Assembly: GCA_018304505.1 (NCBI GenBank)
Contig: JAGVWA010000018.1
Coordinates: 1 to 53,203 of the forward strand
Direction of reading: 5' to 3'
Length of the DNA stretch: 53,203 nt
DNA from: Nanobdellati archaeon
Lineage (GTDB): Archaea > B1Sed10-29 > JAGVWA01
Below, piece by piece: positions 2,276 to 35,811 of this stretch; position 1 is the first letter of the stretch; each line of letters starts with the position of its first letter. A program made the position numbers and the translations under genes. The notes beneath the pieces were generated by a model that saw only the letters and a program-made list of their open reading frames with translations, did no database searches and was not told where the DNA came from.

Positions 2276-2351
2276 ACTCGTTTCGCTATAAGGCGGCTGA
2301 ACAGCTCTATTAACAGCTAATTTTATATACAAAGGGGGGTTAGTGCAAAGT

Positions 2352-2492
2352 ATGCAAGCTAAACGAGCTAGGATAATACCACAAGGCAATGAGCGCACAA
2401 CCCTGGAAGAGTATGTCCTGATATTCATTACCATTGTAATCCTGCTGCTTTTGACGGTTGTTATTCTTACATTCCCGACTATAGGAAGCTAG
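2352..2492 (+). CDS. 46-aa membrane peptide, pilin/class III signal-like (not in ORF track)
   Basis: MQAKRARIIPQGNERTTLEEYVLIFITIVILLLLTVVILTFPTIGS; TTTTATATA and GGGGGT upstream; alternative GTG start at 2343. Confidence 0.5.
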   Translation: MQAKRARIIPQGNERTTLEEYVLIFITIVILLLLTVVILTFPTIGS

Positions 2493-6596: not shown

Positions 6597-8237
6597 TTAC
6601 ATTCCCATTCCGCCCATGTCTGGAGGCATGCCTCCTGGAGGCATTCCACCGCCGCTGGCCTTGGTTGCAATGATGTCGTCTATCTTGAGGATCATTTCTG
6701 CTGCCTCGGCTGCTGAACTTATTGCCTGCTTCTTGACCTTCATTGCTTCAATGACGTTTTGTGCGCTCATGTCCTCGACCTTTGCAGCCATGACGTTGAT
6801 GCCGTGGTTCCTGTTGCCCTTAGCGTGCTGGTTTCTTAACTCGACGATTGAGTCGATTGAGTCCATGCCTGCGCTCTCTGCCAATGTCCTTGGAATGATT
6901 TCGAGTGCGTCTGCAAATGCTTCGATGCCCAACTGTGCTCGGCCGCCTTCTTGTCTTGCAAAAGTGCGTAGCTGCTCAGCGATCTCGATTTCCACTGCGC
7001 CCCCGCCGCTAACGATCTTGCCTAGTTCCAAGGCGCTTGTTGTTGAACCGATGCCGTCCTCCACTGCCCTTTCGGCCTCGTCAATCACGTGTTGCGTGCC
7101 TCCGCGTATGAGGACTGTAACTGCCTTCGGGTTTGTGCAGCCTTCGACAAAGGTCATTGCTTCGCCCGAGACTTTGCGTTCCTCGACTGTTTGTGCTTTG
7201 CCAAGGTCTGAGTCGCTTAGGTCTTTAAGGCTTGACACAATCTTTGCGCCTGTCGCTTTTGCCAATTTGTCGAGATCTGACTTCTTAACTCGTCTTACTG
7301 CAAAGACCCCTGCCTTGGCAAGGTAGTGCTGCGCCATGTCATCAATGCCCTTTTGGCAGAACATGACTGTTGCTTTGCTTTCAACGATTTTGTCCACCAT
7401 GTCCTTGAGCATTTTTTCTTCTTGTTCTAGGAAGGCTTGCATTTGGTCAGGGCTTGTGATTCTAATTTCGGCATCTGTCTCGGTGTCCTTGATTTCAAGG
7501 GCCACGTCTATGAGCGCGATTCTGGCGTTCTCGACTCTTTGTGGCATTCCTGAATGAACGCGTTCTTTGTCCACGACGATGCCCTCTATCAGCTGTGAGT
7601 CTGTGACCATGCCACCTTCTTTCTTTTCAACCTTGATGTAGTCCTTGTCCACAATTGCTTTCCCGTCTCGCTTTTCAGCCACTTTTATAATGGCGTTAAC
7701 AATTATCTTTGACAAGTGGTCCTTCTGGTGGCCTATTGAGCCTTTGCTGGCCATGGTTGTCGTGCATACGTTTATGAGTTTTTCCTTGTCGTCAATGCTT
7801 ATTGGCTGCGCGATTTCTTGCAGGATCTCCTGCGCCTTCTGCTCTGCGCTCTTGTATCCGCGGACGATCATTGTCGGGTGAACATCCTGATCAAGTAGGC
7901 CCTCGGCTTTTTTCAGGAGCTCCCCCGCGATCACTACTGCTGTTGTCGTTCCGTCTCCGGTTTCAGCGTCCTGTGTTTTTGCGACTTCTACGAGCATTTT
8001 TCCAATTGGGTGCTCAATAGACATTTCTTCGAGTATTGTTGCTCCATCGTTTGTTATTGTGATGTCTCCGATTGAATCGACGAGCATTTTGTCCATGCCC
8101 TTCGGCCCAAGTGTGGTCTTTATAGCTGTTGCCACGGCTCGGGCAACGAGAATGTTAATTCTCTGCGCGTCTTTACCTAATGTCCTCTGGGCACCTTCTG
8201 GTAGTATATATACTGGTTGCCCTGTTAGCTGCGTCAT
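6597..8237 (-). CDS. ths: Thermosome (group II chaperonin) subunit
   Basis: [30 protein letters not shown] motifs and GGM tail. Confidence 0.98.
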
Positions 8238-8381: not shown

Positions 8382-9161
8382 ATGGACTCGGGAAAAATTG
8401 ACATGTACAAGACAGCGCTTTACTTGCTGTTGGCAGTCATTGTGGCAATGCTCTCAGTGATCTTTGTGCCAATTGAACCAAGCTCGGTGATACAGAGCAA
8501 CAGAACTGATGTAAGTATACAAGGCGTTTCGTTCAACATCAGCGCAACTGGCACGGCTACTGTTTATCTCAACCCTGATGAAGTCACGGTAACGCTTGGC
8601 GTGGAAACCCTGGACATGAACGCGCAAGCGTCACAGCAGCAAAATACGCTGGCCATGAACGCTGTAATTGATTCACTCAGGGGGCTTGGCATTCATGACG
8701 ATGACATCAGGACCGTGACGTACAGCCTTACCGAGCAATACGACTACACCAGAGAAACTCGGGTATTTGCTGGTTACAGGACAGCGCACCACGTAACCGT
8801 GACAAGTAATGATGTAAAAAAAGCAGGGTTGATCATTGATTCTGCTTCAAAGGCTGGCGCCAACTACATTGGAGAGATAAACTTTGGCTTGCAAGACGAA
8901 ACCCGGCGTGCGGCATTACTGCAGGCTGTCACAGAGGCCACGCGAAACGCTTACGTAAAGGCCGAGGCCTCATCAAAGGTCTTCGGAGCAGACCAACTCA
9001 AGCCTGTAAACGTGCGCGCAGAACAGGACATCATTTATCCATTGTTCAGGGAATCGCTTGTAGTGGATGTGCAAGGCGCGTCTACTGAGGTAAGTCCAGG
9101 CCAAGTATCCGTGTCAGCAACCGTCACAGTGGACTTCCACGCAAGCGACCTTGGGATATAG
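8382..9161 (+). CDS. SIMPL (DUF541) domain membrane-anchored protein
   Basis: N-terminal TM; G.A.V...PD....LGV, GAN.I..I.F.L, PGQV.VSA.V.V.F patterns. Confidence 0.88.
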   Translation: MDSGKIDMYKTALYLLLAVIVAMLSVIFVPIEPSSVIQSNRTDVSIQGVSFNISATGTATVYLNPDEVTVTLGVETLDMNAQASQQQNTLAMNAVIDSLRGLGIHDDDIRTVTYSLTEQYDYTRETRVFAGYRTAHHVTVTSNDVKKAGLIIDSASKAGANYIGEINFGLQDETRRAALLQAVTEATRNAYVKAEASSKVFGADQLKPVNVRAEQDIIYPLFRESLVVDVQGASTEVSPGQVSVSATVTVDFHASDLGI

Positions 9162-9184
9162 CTTAAACTGTTGAATTGCAAATG

Positions 9185-9192
9185 TTTAAATA
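9185..9192 (+). promoter_or_regulatory. TATA box for Cys leader/tRNA-Cys/cysS unit
   Basis: TTTAAATA ending 24 nt before the ATG at 9216. Confidence 0.55.
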
Positions 9193-9215
9193 AAACGAGG
9201 GGTATAATGAGTTGC

Positions 9216-9260
9216 ATGATTAACCAACGCACATGTTGCTGTTGTACCCAAACGAGGTAA
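9216..9260 (+). CDS. Cys-rich leader peptide MINQRTCCCCTQTR (alternative start 9207, adding MSC)
   Basis: TGT TGC TGT TGT run directly upstream of tRNA-Cys and cysS; lies at the expected transcript start. Confidence 0.7.
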   Translation: MINQRTCCCCTQTR

Positions 9261-9322
9261 TGGTTAGTTCTAGCTCTGTTTCTCTGTTGAGATGAACGCG
9301 GGCTAGTGAAAACTTTGAAAAT

Positions 9323-9469
9323 GCAGGGATGGCAGAGTCTGCGTTGAACTCGTTCAACGAGCTTTCAGCGCGGCTGCAATGGCCATGCACCCGGCTGCAG
9401 TTCAGTTCTCTGTAAACTGGAGGACGGGACAGGAACCGGGAGACACGGATTCGATTTCCGTTCCCTGCT
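9323..9469 (+). tRNA. tRNA-Cys(GCA) with two introns (15/16: 9338-9379; 37/38: 9401-9434)
   Basis: Acceptor GCAGGGA/TCCCTGC plus U73; anticodon arm CCCGG-CTGCAG|A-CCGGG; T arm ACGGA-TTCGATT-TCCGT; BHB-like motif at the D-loop intron. Confidence 0.88.
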
Positions 9470-9491
9470 TTCATCTTATCGGGTAATTAAA

Positions 9492-10052
9492 ATGAATGGT
9501 TTAAATCAATATGACGGAAAAACCTTGCCTGGGTACACAACACCTGATGGCGAAGAGATAGTCATACGCGTAGTGACAAGGTCAGATGTAAGCAAGCTGT
9601 ATACGTTTTACAACAAAATGATAGGCACTGCCCCGTTTTCAAGGTATTTCAATCAATCGGATTCAGAAGAAAAAAAGAAAAAATGGATAAATGATTACAT
9701 TGAGTCAGACTACCAAACACTTGTGGTTGCAGAAGCCAAAAATGAAATCATTGGCTCAATAGGATTAGAGCTTACAGATGTGCCCGGCGCAAGCCATGTC
9801 GGTACATTACGGGGCATATCGGTAATTGAAGCTTGGAAGGGCAAGGATATATCGCGGCATATTGTTGCCGGCGTACTCAGTCTCGCGAAAATTGTTGGTC
9901 TTGAACTCATAATTTTGTCAATTAGGAGTGGGAACAACCTTGCTATAAGCCTATTTATCTCTGCAGGGTTTACAGAATATGGTAGTCTTCCCCAGGGGAG
10001 GAAAATTGATGGCAAGTACTATGATTCAATAATGCTCTTCAAAAAATTGTGA
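9492..10052 (+). CDS. GNAT family N-acetyltransferase
   Basis: LVVAE..EIIG, HVG..GISV, N..AI.LF...GF.EYG, DGKYYD.I.L motifs; stop overlaps cysS start (TGATG). Confidence 0.85.
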   Translation: MNGLNQYDGKTLPGYTTPDGEEIVIRVVTRSDVSKLYTFYNKMIGTAPFSRYFNQSDSEEKKKKWINDYIESDYQTLVVAEAKNEIIGSIGLELTDVPGASHVGTLRGISVIEAWKGKDISRHIVAGVLSLAKIVGLELIILSIRSGNNLAISLFISAGFTEYGSLPQGRKIDGKYYDSIMLFKKL

Positions 10053-11440
10053 TGCAAATGATCAAACTTTACAACACGCTTACACGACAAAAGGAAGAAT
10101 TCAAGACAATAAACGACAAGGAAGTCACTTTTTATAGCTGCGGGCCTACGGTTTACTGGTATGCGCACATCGGCAATCTAAGGGCGTACGTGTTTGCAGA
10201 CCTTCTAAAGAAAACCCTGGAATACAATGGCTACAAAGTAAGGCATGCCATGAACATAACCGATGTTGGTCACCTCACAAGCGACAGCGACACAGGCGAG
10301 GATAAGATGGAGAAAGCCAAAAAGCGCGAAGGGAAAAACGCATGGGAAATCGCCAAGTTCTATGAGGCCGCATTTTTCATGGACACTGATCGGCTCAACA
10401 TCGCGCGGCCAACAATAACGTGCAGGGCAACAGACCACATCAAGGAACAGATAAGCTTAGTAACGGCACTGGAAGAAAAAGGCTACACGTACCGTATTGA
10501 AGACGGAATCTATTTCGACACGTCCAAGTTATCTGATTACGGAAAGCTGGCAAGGCTCGACATTGAGGGCTTAAAGGCCGGCGCGCGCATCGAACTAGTT
10601 CCGGGTAAGAAGAACCCGACGGACTTCGCCCTATGGAAATTTTCCCCAAAAGACGCACAGCGCGACATGGAATGGGACAGCCCGTGGGGCATCGGGTTTC
10701 CAGGATGGCACATTGAATGCAGCGCGATGAGCATGCACCATCTCGGTAATCATTTTGACATACACACAGGCGGTGTTGATCACATTCCAGTACATCACAC
10801 AAACGAGATCGCGCAGTCAGAAAGCGCAACAGGGGAACAGTTCGTGAATTATTGGCTCCATAACGAGTTTGTTAATTTTAAGGACGTGAAGATGAGCAAG
10901 AGCAGCGGGGACATTTTGACATTGGACGTCCTAATAAACAGTGGCTACTCTCCAATGGATTACCGCTACCTGCTTTTGATGAGCCATTACAGAAGCCAAG
11001 TCACGTTTTCATTAGAAGCAATGGACAATGTAAAGAACACCCTCGAGCGGCTAAAGCGGCATGTTGTAGAACTCAGAAAGTCAGGCACAGGAAAAATTAA
11101 CGAAGCGTACGTGACAAAATTCGTTGAGAAAATGAATGACGATCTCAGCACGCCGGAAGCCCTTTCCGTGATGTGGGAGATGGTCCGCGATGATTCCATT
11201 TCAAGTAGCGATAAATACGCCACGCTCCTCGATTTCGACAAAATCCTATCATTGGGCATTGCGGAAATGCAGGAAGAGAAAGTAGAATTGACTCCCGACG
11301 AGCAGGCACTGGTGGAAAAACGCGATAAGGCACGCGCAGAGAAGGATTGGAAAACCAGCGACGAAATTCGGGATGAATTGAAGAAGCGCGGCCTGCAACT
11401 GCTTGACACGCCAGAGGGTACCAAGGTCGAGCAGGCGTAG
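10052..11440 (+). CDS. cysS: Cysteinyl-tRNA synthetase
   Basis: CGPTVY, HIGN, DFALWK, PGWHIECSAM, HH.NEIAQS, KMSKS. Confidence 0.98.
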   Translation: MQMIKLYNTLTRQKEEFKTINDKEVTFYSCGPTVYWYAHIGNLRAYVFADLLKKTLEYNGYKVRHAMNITDVGHLTSDSDTGEDKMEKAKKREGKNAWEIAKFYEAAFFMDTDRLNIARPTITCRATDHIKEQISLVTALEEKGYTYRIEDGIYFDTSKLSDYGKLARLDIEGLKAGARIELVPGKKNPTDFALWKFSPKDAQRDMEWDSPWGIGFPGWHIECSAMSMHHLGNHFDIHTGGVDHIPVHHTNEIAQSESATGEQFVNYWLHNEFVNFKDVKMSKSSGDILTLDVLINSGYSPMDYRYLLLMSHYRSQVTFSLEAMDNVKNTLERLKRHVVELRKSGTGKINEAYVTKFVEKMNDDLSTPEALSVMWEMVRDDSISSSDKYATLLDFDKILSLGIAEMQEEKVELTPDEQALVEKRDKARAEKDWKTSDEIRDELKKRGLQLLDTPEGTKVEQA

Positions 11441-35685: not shown

Positions 35686-35811
35686 GCCGAGGTCGCATAG
35701 ACTGCAAAGGAGCAGGGCTCTTTGAATCTGCACCTTGCAGGTGCAGCGGTATTGCGCTGGTCTTGAAAACCAGTCCCTCTGGGATCGTGGGTTCAAATCC
35801 CACCCTCGGCG
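35686..35811 (+). tRNA. tRNA-Ser(UGA) with 46-nt intron at 15/16 (35701-35746)
   Basis: GCCGAGG/CCTCGGC plus G73; CTGGT-CTTGAAA-ACCAG; long variable arm; BHB helix GCAT/GTGC with AG|A and AG|C bulges. Confidence 0.92.

What the first reader, a model, noticed from the sequence alone, without database searches (positions are those of the whole stretch)
9207..9260. Tetra-cysteine leader peptide in front of tRNA-Cys-GNAT-cysS
ATG9216 ATT AAC CAA CGC ACA TGT TGC TGT TGT ACC CAA ACG AGG TAA encodes MINQRTCCCCTQTR. An in-frame ATG at 9207 with a GAGGGG SD adds MSC, giving 5 Cys. TTTAAATA at 9185-9192 places the transcript start about at ATG9216, so it would be leaderless. The ORF is enclosed by stem GATTAACCA(9218-9226)/TGGTTAGTT(9261-9269). 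Cys is a rare residue, so four in a row 78 nt before tRNA-Cys is striking.
Basis: partly seen in the sequence, partly recalled or inferred. Interest (0 to 1): 0.9.

Follow-up and report, generated by a model that had tools for sequence, protein, structure and literature searches.

The report
Poly-cysteine leader ORF before archaeal tRNA-Cys/cysS
A 14-codon reading frame with four cysteine codons in a row sits at the very start of the transcript for the cysteine tRNA and its charging enzyme in a tiny archaeon, recurs in relatives, and probably lets the ribosome sense cysteine supply, a control so far shown only in bacteria.

Summary
ATG9216..TAA9260 reads MINQRTCCCCTQTR. A perfect TATA box (9185-9192) ends 23 nt before the ATG. 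That spacing is this genome's normal one for leaderless genes. Downstream lie a two-intron tRNA-Cys (9323-9469, missed by default ARAGORN and Rfam), a GNAT gene and cysS.

The same layout occurs in 14 other loci from two archaeal phyla: TATA, 20-26 nt, ATG, 4-6 codons, 2-6 Cys codons, then a stop within 4 codons. Eleven of these precede tRNA-Cys, and cysS follows in 10 of the 11. Three precede a cysteine synthase gene followed by tRNA-Cys. TGT/TGC usage varies while Cys is kept. In genome-wide scans, nearly all in-frame CCCC short ORFs were these leaders.

Best reading (0.7): a leaderless Cys-sensing leader peptide on which ribosomes stall. It is the archaeal counterpart of the mycobacterial polycysteine leaderless sORF attenuators, here placed before a tRNA gene and its synthetase.

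The sensing half is well supported. The output step is unresolved. Most leaders can form a helix enclosing the ORF, but fixed-column covariation failed, and the window has no clear oligo-T terminator. No RNA data exist. The closest relatives lack the leader.

The parts
9185..9192 (+). TATA box TTTAAATA (8/8 to TTTAWATA), promoter of the leader/tRNA-Cys/GNAT/cysS unit
   Evidence: Sequence. It ends 23 nt before ATG9216. In G000 the TATA-to-ATG distance for 533 long ORFs peaks at 20-24 nt.
9216..9260 (+). Leaderless leader ORF MINQRTCCCCTQTR, stop codon included
   Evidence: It is the only Cys-run short ORF among 115 leaderless-like short ORFs of G000. It has counterparts in 14 other loci.
9234..9245 (+). 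Four consecutive Cys codons TGT TGC TGT TGT, the proposed ribosome stall site
   Evidence: Cys runs of 2-6 codons with varying TGT/TGC are kept in all 15 leaders.
9218..9226 (+). 5' arm of helix P1 (GAUUAACCA), inside codons 1-4 of the leader
   Evidence: Minimum-free-energy fold. RNAduplex (window alone z -0.8). The analogous helix passes the shuffle test in 10 of the 12 leaders tested and is in the MFE fold of the 3 cysK-type leaders.
9261..9269 (+). 3' arm of helix P1 (UGGUUAGUU), directly after the stop codon. It corresponds to the GCAUAGGUU block of the relatives.
9270..9306 (+). Second hairpin P2 (CUAGC...GCUAG) with a pyrimidine-rich 5' arm
   Evidence: It is in the fold and stays in all ribosome-masked folds, shortened by 2 bp at its base when the ribosome is placed at the stop codon. 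A second hairpin just before the tRNA is also predicted in L013, L284, L286, L287, L288 and L289.
9303..9309 (+). Conserved block CTAGTGA, about 14 nt before the tRNA
   Evidence: It aligns with (C/T)TAGTGA in L286, L287, L288 and L293. Its function is unknown.
9323..9469 (+). tRNA-Cys(GCA) gene with two introns: a D-loop intron at about 9340-9380 and a canonical 37/38 intron at about 9401-9434. The anticodon is at 9396-9398 and U73 at 9469.
   Evidence: The D-loop intron is at the same place as in L002. No other tRNA-Cys exists among the 33 ARAGORN tRNAs of G000. Exact splice sites are not determined.
9492..10052 (+). GNAT acetyltransferase gene. It starts 22 nt after the tRNA and overlaps cysS by 4 nt.
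   Evidence: Pfam. NCBIfam gives only weak, below-cutoff hits.
10049..11440 (+). cysS, cysteinyl-tRNA synthetase
   Evidence: Pfam tRNA-synt_1e at 2.7e-94, plus CysS_C and DALR_2.

Best explanation
The short ORF at 9216-9260 is a leaderless leader peptide gene. It reports the supply of charged Cys-tRNA(Cys) to the operon behind it: tRNA-Cys, a GNAT gene and cysS.

Inferred course of events:
- Transcription starts at or next to ATG9216, set by the TATA box at 9185-9192.
- A ribosome loads on the 5'-terminal AUG and reaches four consecutive Cys codons after six codons.
- When Cys-tRNA(Cys) is plentiful, the ribosome finishes and leaves. The RNA then closes into a helix (9218-9226 with 9261-9269) that encloses the ORF and buries the 5' end.
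- When Cys-tRNA(Cys) is scarce, the ribosome stalls on the Cys run, holds that helix open and frees the segment after the stop codon.
- The open state is proposed to favour expression of tRNA-Cys and CysRS, through less premature termination in the pyrimidine-rich tract or through altered stability or processing of the precursor.

What is shown: the ORF, its promoter spacing, its conservation with Cys codons in frame, and its exclusive association with Cys genes (tRNA-Cys, cysS, cysteine synthase).

What is inferred: translation, stalling and the direction of regulation.

What is open: which molecular step is controlled in the tRNA-type loci.
For: 1. Promoter and start.
- The TATA box is 8/8 and ends 23 nt before the ATG.
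- In G000 the TATA-to-ATG distances of 533 long ORFs peak at 20-24 nt. That range holds 73 of the 177 TATA hits. Only 56 of the 533 ORFs have an SD-like motif.

2. Recurrence: 15 leaders share the architecture.
- Window: MINQRTCCCCTQTR.
- G039: MNQIRLCCCCC.
- G029: MKSRTFCCCC.
- G002: MAAGLLCC.
- G047: MKLNLCCCC.
- G052: MKSKTFDCCCCCQ.
- G053: MNTDKICCCCCC.
- G051: MEPKTIECCCCCC.
- G045 and G046: MKSELCCCC.
- G042: MKAKILCCC.
- G048: MKRNLCGCCCSQ.
- G024: MRKMACCCCC.
- G023: MQGLACCCCC.
- G018: MNTMDLCCCC.
- The TATA score is at least 7/8 in 14 of 15, with gaps of 20-26 nt.
- TGT/TGC usage differs between loci while Cys is kept.

3. Downstream genes.
- tRNA-Cys follows directly in 12 of the 15. 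cysS follows in 10 of the 11 non-window cases.
- In the other 3, a cysteine synthase comes first and tRNA-Cys follows it. TIGR01136 scores 375 and 388 bits (above cutoff) and 325 bits (below cutoff).

4. Unbiased scans for ATG-N(9-21)-CCCC-stop.
- In the 17 genomes of G039's phylum, 8 loci hold in-frame ORFs of at most 40 codons. Seven of the 8 are the tRNA-Cys leaders.
- In the class of G000, the 29 fetched loci held 3 such ORFs, and all 3 are leaders.

5. Within G039's phylum, the leader is present at 9 of 14 tRNA-Cys loci. cysS lies within 1.5 kb in 8 of the 9 loci with a leader and in 0 of the 5 without.

6. RNA pairing.
- The 5' part of the ORF pairs with the 35 nt from the stop codon on more strongly than in 300 shuffles. 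Mean z is -2.57, and p is at most 0.06 in 10 of 12 leaders.
- Minimum-free-energy folds enclose the Cys run.

7. Physiology.
- G000 (92.8% complete) has no PALP-family hit.
- It has no SepRS or SepCysS above cutoff.
- It has a single tRNA-Cys candidate.

8. Precedent: polycysteine leaderless sORFs act as Cys-responsive attenuators in mycobacteria (bioRxiv 10.1101/834739; abstract and passages read).
Against: - There is no transcript, TSS or ribosome data. No RNA run holds the locus.
- The closest relatives lack a Cys run. G011 (CysS 64% identical) has the tRNA directly behind its promoter. G013 has at most one Cys in a short ORF.
- Most tRNA-Cys loci of the class have no leader.
- A pattern tied to GCRG-type tRNA 5' ends found nothing in 152 and 16 genomes of two other phyla, and only one coding-looking hit in 151 genomes of a third.
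- The helix is not at fixed homologous columns. RNAalifold gave no consensus. On the model-fitted alignment only 53.8% of cells pair, and 210 of 500 shuffles do as well.
- The window's own helix is not better than shuffles (z -0.8).
- The window's spacer has no oligo-T run of 4 or more, so classical archaeal termination is not evident there.
- Folds of leader plus tRNA show no leader-dependent change of the tRNA in 7 of 8 loci.
- Ribosome-masked folds of the cysK-type leaders free the start region in only 1 of 3.
Confidence: 0.7

Rival explanations
1. The short ORF is translated but does not sense cysteine. It would be a constitutive 5' element, for example one that loads ribosomes to protect or couple the young transcript, and the Cys run would be incidental or serve another purpose.
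For: The output step could not be identified. There is no terminator in the window. The tRNA fold does not depend on the leader state in 7 of 8 loci. The leader is absent from the closest relatives.
Against: Only the Cys run is conserved, while the N-terminal codons vary freely. The element occurs only before Cys genes: tRNA-Cys, cysS and cysteine synthase. Seven of 8 in-frame CCCC short ORFs in 17 genomes are at tRNA-Cys.
Confidence: 0.1
2. The element works as RNA only. The UGY repeat and the flanking helix would bind a protein or the tRNA-Cys anticodon, in a T-box-like way, without being translated.
For: There are conserved nucleotide blocks outside the ORF: GCAUAGGUU, AAUUUCUUUG and UAGUGA. 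Most leaders have a helix around the repeat.
Against: In 15 of 15 loci an ATG sits 20-26 nt behind a TATA box and in phase with the Cys run, and an in-phase stop follows within 4 codons. Wobble positions vary between TGT and TGC. No Rfam family matches 9100-9550 at E up to 10. No consistent UGGN box for the tRNA 3' end was seen by eye; this was not tested formally.
Confidence: 0.1
3. The product is a functional Cys-rich micropeptide, for example a metal- or redox-active one, that merely happens to be encoded next to tRNA-Cys.
For: The ORF is conserved as an ORF, with Cys at the C-terminus.
Against: Length varies from 8 to 14 residues. The non-Cys residues are not conserved, and the number of Cys varies from 2 to 6. 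Its position is always at the 5' end of Cys-related operons.
Confidence: 0.05
4. It is a chance ORF in a spacer.
For: G000 has 20 runs of 4 or more Cys codons in its six frames, about ten times the mononucleotide expectation. The window's helix is not significant on its own.
Against: Only 3 of those 20 runs have an in-frame ATG upstream. Only 1 of 115 leaderless-like short ORFs has a Cys run. Fourteen further loci have the same layout. None of the 80 metagenome cysS loci, used as a control, has a CCC short ORF within 1 kb upstream of cysS.
Confidence: 0.03

Closest known systems
Mycobacterial polycysteine leaderless short ORFs (Ms5788A and the 'Cys ribulon'; Canestrari et al., bioRxiv 10.1101/834739; abstract and passages read)
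   Same: The mRNA is leaderless, starting at the initiation codon. The ORF is very short, with consecutive Cys codons at or near its 3' end. It is the first ORF of an operon of cysteine-related genes. The RNA around the ORF forms a duplex that a stalled ribosome would hold open. Three relatives (G018, G023, G024) put the leader before a cysteine synthase, as in mycobacteria.
   Different: The domain is Archaea, with a TATA-box promoter. In the window and 11 other loci the next gene is a tRNA gene, which has no ribosome-binding site to sequester, followed by the synthetase. The mycobacterial output (Cys tract pairing with the SD of the next gene) therefore cannot apply as such. No sequence homology is claimed, and there is no experimental evidence here.
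Predicted Cys-run leader peptides of Actinobacteria (cys operon of Mycobacterium and Propionibacterium, cbs of Bifidobacterium; Seliverstov et al. 2005, PMC1262725; passages read)
   Same: Candidate leader peptides have runs of Cys codons near the stop codon. No classical terminator hairpin was found, so the mode of regulation was left open.
   Different: Those are bacterial biosynthetic operons. The authors suggested Rho dependence.
Classical ribosome-mediated attenuators, including the pheST leader (pheM) of E. coli that controls a synthetase operon (recalled, from no call)
   Same: [quoted passage not shown] Ribosome position decides between RNA folds.
   Different: Those have a defined 1:2/2:3/3:4 topology with a hairpin-plus-U terminator. 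Here only the ORF-enclosing helix is supported, and no terminator is evident in the window.
T-box leader of the Bacillus subtilis cysE-cysS operon (recalled, from no call)
   Same: It has the same physiological logic: expression of CysRS responds to the charging state of tRNA-Cys.
   Different: A T-box reads uncharged tRNA directly by RNA-RNA contacts and needs no translation. No Rfam T-box or other family matches here.

Membership tests
Leader-peptide (ribosome-mediated) attenuator | Short ORF in the 5' leader with tandem codons for the regulating amino acid | tested here: met
   Four consecutive Cys codons in a 14-codon ORF. Cys is 1.0% of residues in long ORFs.
Leader-peptide (ribosome-mediated) attenuator | Placed before genes for the synthesis or charging of that amino acid | tested here: met
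   tRNA-Cys and cysS in the window. cysS follows in 10 of 11 other tRNA-type loci. A cysteine synthase follows in 3 loci.
Leader-peptide (ribosome-mediated) attenuator | Regulatory codons kept in frame across relatives, with synonymous variation | tested here: met
   15 of 15 leaders.
Leader-peptide (ribosome-mediated) attenuator | Mutually exclusive RNA structures overlapping the ORF | tested here: inconclusive
   The ORF-enclosing helix is supported per sequence (mean z -2.57). Fixed-column covariation does not support it. Alternative pairings were seen by eye and in 1 of 3 masked folds.
Leader-peptide (ribosome-mediated) attenuator | Terminator, or sequestered ribosome-binding site, as the output | tested here: inconclusive
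   The window spacer has no T run of 4 or more. T5-T6 tracts follow the helix in L286, L287, L288 and L024. The next gene is a tRNA, so no SD is involved.
Leader-peptide (ribosome-mediated) attenuator | Downstream expression responds to limitation of the amino acid | not testable with these tools
   No RNA run holds the locus.
Mycobacterial-type polycysteine leaderless sORF | Transcript begins at the start codon | tested here: met
   Shown by promoter spacing only. The gap is 23 nt, inside the genome's 20-24 nt peak. There is no TSS mapping.
Mycobacterial-type polycysteine leaderless sORF | At least two consecutive Cys codons near the 3' end of the sORF | tested here: met
   CCCC is followed by 4 codons and the stop. 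In 11 of the other 14 leaders the stop follows the Cys run directly.
Mycobacterial-type polycysteine leaderless sORF | The Cys tract pairs with the Shine-Dalgarno region of the next gene | tested here: not met
   The next gene in the window is a tRNA. In the folds the Cys run sits in the loop of the helix.
tRNA-Cys gene | Cloverleaf with GCA anticodon and U73 | tested here: met
   R1 scores it 54.3 bits over model positions 1-71. ARAGORN calls tRNA-Cys(GCA) after in-silico removal of two introns. T at 9469 follows the acceptor stem. That U73 is an identity element is recalled.
tRNA-Cys gene | Introns bounded by bulge-helix-bulge motifs | not tested
   Boundaries were inferred from L002 and L003 and from loop length. 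BHB motifs were not modelled.

The most novel reading that the evidence does not exclude
This is the first amino-acid-sensing leader peptide system in Archaea. A leaderless poly-Cys ORF makes the translating ribosome the sensor of Cys-tRNA(Cys). It controls, from one promoter, the only tRNA-Cys gene and the only route to Cys-tRNA (CysRS) in a cysteine-auxotrophic, host-dependent archaeon. Relatives put the same sensor before cysteine synthase, which would make it an archaeal 'Cys ribulon'. The controlled gene directly behind the sensor is a tRNA, so the output cannot be sequestration of a ribosome-binding site. It would have to be a so far undescribed ribosome-dependent control of archaeal transcription elongation or termination, or of precursor-tRNA fate.
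Probability: 0.55. Interest if true: 0.85.

Novelty: new variant of a known kind. Interest (0 to 1): 0.8.

Why it matters
To my knowledge (recalled), regulation by ribosome stalling on a leader peptide has been shown experimentally only in bacteria. Five full-text searches found no archaeal case with Cys leaders.

This element gives a concrete, conserved and very small test object: about 110 nt, from the TATA box to the tRNA. With it one can ask two questions. Do archaeal transcription and translation talk to each other in a regulatory way? How can a tRNA gene be put under translational sensing?

It also suggests how genome-reduced archaea that cannot make cysteine keep Cys-tRNA(Cys) in balance.

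Finally, leaderless short ORFs with amino-acid runs are a usable search key for regulators in uncultivated archaea.

Tried and rejected
1. Whole-collection pattern scan (genome contigs). Of 119 loci, 6 hold a tRNA-Cys. Only L235 (the G039 locus itself) and L141 have the Cys run just upstream of it. The L141 frame (a Thermoproteota MAG) has no start codon, so I rejected it as chance.

2. Metagenome scan with CysS. It returned 80 loci, at most 60% identical, and no close relative. Only L031 and L034 have tRNA-Cys before cysS. L034 has a doubtful ORF, MACRMTGEYFCNI. I used these loci as a negative control.

3. My first tRNA-linked patterns were too narrow. The strict pattern would miss 8 of 10 known positives and the relaxed one 5 of 10. 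The 7 matching genomes among the 371 are coding-looking chance hits.

4. A revised pattern gave 0 of 152, 0 of 16 and 1 (coding-looking) of 151 genomes in three other phyla. It sees only tRNAs that start with GCRG, so these blanks are weak.

5. Sequencing runs. No RNA holder is listed. Contigs from four DNA runs laid on 8700-10300 are identical, low-coverage fragments with no variants, so they give no microdiversity test.

6. RNA structure tests.
- RNAalifold on the MAFFT alignment gave no consensus.
- The fixed-column pair count on the model-fitted alignment was not better than shuffles.
- Leader model R2 found only its training sequences plus G018 at 21.8 bits.
- Its two weak genome hits, in G001 and G027, are coding regions.

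7. Leader-tRNA cross-pairing as an output. It was seen only in L024, 1 of 8 loci.

8. Masked folds of the cysK-type leaders free the start region only in L260, 1 of 3.

9. Other homopolymer short ORFs of G000 (LLL, SSSS) look like chance: no cognate gene lies downstream.

10. The f4-family frame 'YYCCCCSVS' lies about 540 nt upstream of the tRNA, beyond a divergent gene start. It has no ATG, so I rejected it.

Supplementary files of the papers were not opened. Tables S1 and S2 of 10.1101/834739 may list features of the mycobacterial sORFs that I could not compare.

Full report
OBSERVATION

- ATG9216 opens a 14-codon frame, MINQRTCCCCTQTR, with TGT TGC TGT TGT at 9234-9245 and TAA at 9258-9260.
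- An in-frame ATG at 9207 would add MSC.
- TTTAAATA lies at 9185-9192.

Pfam confirms a SIMPL-family gene ending at 9161, a GNAT gene (9492-10052) and cysS (10049-11440). It also shows a thermosome gene at 6597-8237 on the minus strand.

The window is contig C1 of a 917-kb assembly in 21 contigs, 92.8% complete. I read it as a small-genome, DPANN-like archaeon. That label is an inference from genome size, the thermosome gene, TATA promoters and intron-bearing tRNAs.

THE tRNA

Default ARAGORN and Rfam report no tRNA between the ORF and the GNAT gene.
- Relaxed ARAGORN finds an acceptor stem and T arm spanning 9323-9469.
- A covariance model built from ten intron-free tRNA-Cys genes of relatives (A1 and R1) matches 9323-9469 over its full length. 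The score is 54.3 bits, E 6e-10, the best hit in G000.
- The closest relative, G011 (L002), has a D-loop intron at the same place.
- Removing two introns in silico makes ARAGORN call tRNA-Cys(GCA) in 161 of 1200 boundary variants, for example with introns 9340-9380 and 9401-9434.
- ARAGORN finds 33 other tRNAs in G000 and none is for Cys. This is therefore the only tRNA-Cys candidate.
- Only 22 nt separate the tRNA from the GNAT start, and GNAT overlaps cysS by 4 nt. I infer one transcription unit driven by the promoter at 9185-9192.

LEADERLESS START

I measured the distance from the end of a TATA-like 8-mer (at least 7/8 match) to the first ATG for 533 long ORFs of G000.
- The distances peak sharply at 20-24 nt (counts 8, 17, 30, 10, 8). 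That range holds 73 of the 177 upstream hits, against 11 hits in an equal span inside genes.
- Only 56 of the 533 ORFs have an SD-like motif.
- Leaderless mRNAs are therefore this organism's rule.
- ATG9216 lies 23 nt behind a perfect TATA box, inside the peak. ATG9207 lies 14 nt behind it, outside the peak.
- The leader therefore most likely starts at 9216 and has four Cys, not five.

RECURRENCE

CysS-anchored loci from 41 related genomes showed tRNA-Cys directly before cysS in many lineages. In G039, G029 and more weakly G002, a short ATG-started ORF ending in a Cys run lies upstream of that tRNA.

Searching G039's phylum (17 genomes) with R1 gave 14 tRNA-Cys loci, and 9 of them carry such an ORF.

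Leader model R2 and an unbiased pattern then found three more in family f9 of the window's own class: G018, G023 and G024. There the ORF precedes a cysteine synthase gene, which is followed by tRNA-Cys.

In total there are 15 leaders.
- TATA scores at least 7/8 in 14 of 15.
- The TATA-to-ATG gap is 20-26 nt, most often 23.
- 4-6 codons come before the Cys run.
- The run has 2-6 Cys codons, interrupted once by Gly in G048.
- The stop follows directly in 11 leaders and within 1-4 codons in 4.
- TGT and TGC alternate differently from locus to locus. Within one genus, G051, G052 and G053 differ at wobble positions and in Cys number, while the residues before the run are unrelated.
- cysS lies downstream in 10 of the 11 non-window tRNA-type loci.

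CHANCE

- G000 has 20 runs of at least 4 Cys codons in its six frames, and only 3 have an in-frame ATG upstream.
- Of 115 leaderless-like short ORFs in G000, only this one has a Cys run.
- In the 17 genomes of G039's phylum, the pattern ATG-N(9-21)-CCCC-N(0-9)-TRR gave 24 matches. In-frame ORFs of at most 40 codons occur at 8 loci, and 7 of the 8 are the tRNA-Cys leaders.
- In the class of G000, the 29 loci fetched from the same kind of scan held 3 such ORFs, all leaders. Two further rows (G018, G024) were read in L273 and L260. The remaining unfetched rows were not checked by script.
- None of the 80 metagenome cysS loci has a CCC short ORF within 1 kb upstream of cysS.

RNA STRUCTURE

In the window the minimum-free-energy fold of 9216-9322 has two elements.
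- P1 pairs 9218-9226 with 9261-9269 and encloses the ORF.
- P2 is a hairpin at 9270-9306.

Folds of the other leaders also place the Cys run and stop in the loop of a helix. Its 5' arm lies in the codons before the run. Its 3' arm is a conserved GCAUAGGUU-like block about 10 nt after the stop.

RNAduplex energies between the two parts beat 300 shuffles, with mean z -2.57. Ten of 12 leaders have p at most 0.06. The window scores z -0.8 and L291 shows no signal.

The arms are not at fixed columns.
- RNAalifold found no consensus.
- On the model-fitted alignment the nine given pairs hold in only 53.8% of cells, no better than shuffles.

So each leader can close around its ORF, but covariation in the strict sense is not shown.

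Pyrimidine-rich or T-rich tracts follow the helix. L286, L288 and L024 have T5 there, and L286 and L287 have T6 closer to the tRNA. The window has only TTT. A further block, AAUUUCUUUG..UAGUGA, lies about 15 nt before the tRNA in several loci. The window has CTAGTGA at 9303-9309.

PHYSIOLOGY

G000 has no PALP-family gene, although the same search hits all 14 control genomes. It has no SepRS or SepCysS above cutoff. As far as a 92.8% complete assembly shows, the organism cannot make cysteine and depends on CysRS for Cys-tRNA.

MECHANISM

The sensing half follows from established attenuation logic and from the mycobacterial precedent. A ribosome on a leaderless short ORF must read several Cys codons in a row and stalls when Cys-tRNA(Cys) is short.

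The stalled ribosome would cover the 5' arm of P1 and keep the helix open. After normal termination the helix closes and buries the 5' end.

What the open state changes is not settled.
- Model a: less premature termination in the T-rich or pyrimidine-rich tract. This fits the AT-rich relatives better than the window.
- Model b: altered stability or processing of the precursor.
- In the cysK-type relatives, exposure of the start region of cysK is possible, but masked folds show it in only 1 of 3.
- Folds give no sign that the leader state changes tRNA folding, in 7 of 8 loci.

I put 0.7 on Cys sensing by stalling. Within that, I have no more than even odds on transcription attenuation as the output.

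KNOWN RELATIVES OF THE IDEA

- Cys-run leader peptides were predicted before actinobacterial cys and cbs genes (PMC1262725; passages read).
- Polycysteine leaderless sORFs were shown to be Cys-responsive attenuators in mycobacteria. There, stalled ribosomes block a structure that sequesters the next gene's ribosome-binding site (10.1101/834739; abstract and passages read).
- uORF4u states generally that uORFs regulate in archaea too (PMC10219788; passages read).
- Five full-text searches found no report of a Cys leader in archaea or before tRNA-Cys or cysS. The library lacks most subscription journals, so this is not proof of absence.

LIMITS AND CONTRARY RESULTS

- The closest relatives lack the element. 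G011 has none, and G013 has one Cys at most.
- Most tRNA-Cys loci of the class lack it.
- So far it is seen in only two small phyla, of 31 and 17 genomes. Scans of three other phyla were blank but narrow.
- No expression data exist.

Noticed in passing
window 9323-9469: The only tRNA-Cys candidate of the genome carries two introns, one in the D loop and one at 37/38. Default ARAGORN and Rfam do not see it. The D-loop intron sits at the same place as in the three-intron tRNA-Cys of G011 (L002).
   Followed up: partly
L273 850-1500 (-), G018: An ORF with weak LAGLIDADG endonuclease matches lies between tRNA-Cys and cysS, inside the leader-cysK-tRNA-Cys-cysS unit.
   Followed up: no
L028, L029, L030 (G006, G010, G004), just upstream of tRNA-Cys: In these leader-less loci a small winged-helix-like ORF (…TPTQII..T..SERTVR.AL.KLK…) ends right before the tRNA-Cys/cysS pair. 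It may be a protein regulator standing in for the leader.
   Followed up: no
G000 whole genome: TATA-to-ATG distances peak sharply at 22 nt, and only about a tenth of long ORFs have an SD-like motif. The organism seems to run almost entirely on leaderless mRNAs.
   Followed up: partly
G000 whole genome: There is no PALP-family gene and no SepRS or SepCysS above cutoff. The organism is apparently a cysteine auxotroph. Relatives G018, G023 and G024 do have a cysteine synthase, and it sits behind the same kind of leader.
   Followed up: partly
window 9492-10052: A GNAT acetyltransferase is wedged between tRNA-Cys and cysS and overlaps cysS by 4 nt. Only weak family matches were found. It was not seen at this place in the other loci inspected.
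   Followed up: no
L013 about 2290-2410 (-), G039: A second, intron-containing tRNA-like gene and a ~95-codon ORF lie between tRNA-Cys and cysS (read by eye; ARAGORN did not call it).
   Followed up: no
window 35735-35811: The tRNA-Ser(tga) scores only 32.2 bits against Rfam tRNA, just above the gathering score of 29.
   Followed up: no
leaders of L286, L287, L288, L293 and window 9303-9309: A conserved block (C/T)TAGTGA lies about 14-18 nt before the tRNA in L286, L287, L288 and the window, and much further upstream in L293. In L286-L288 it is preceded by AAUUUCUUUG. It is kept across two phyla, and no role has been assigned.
   Followed up: no
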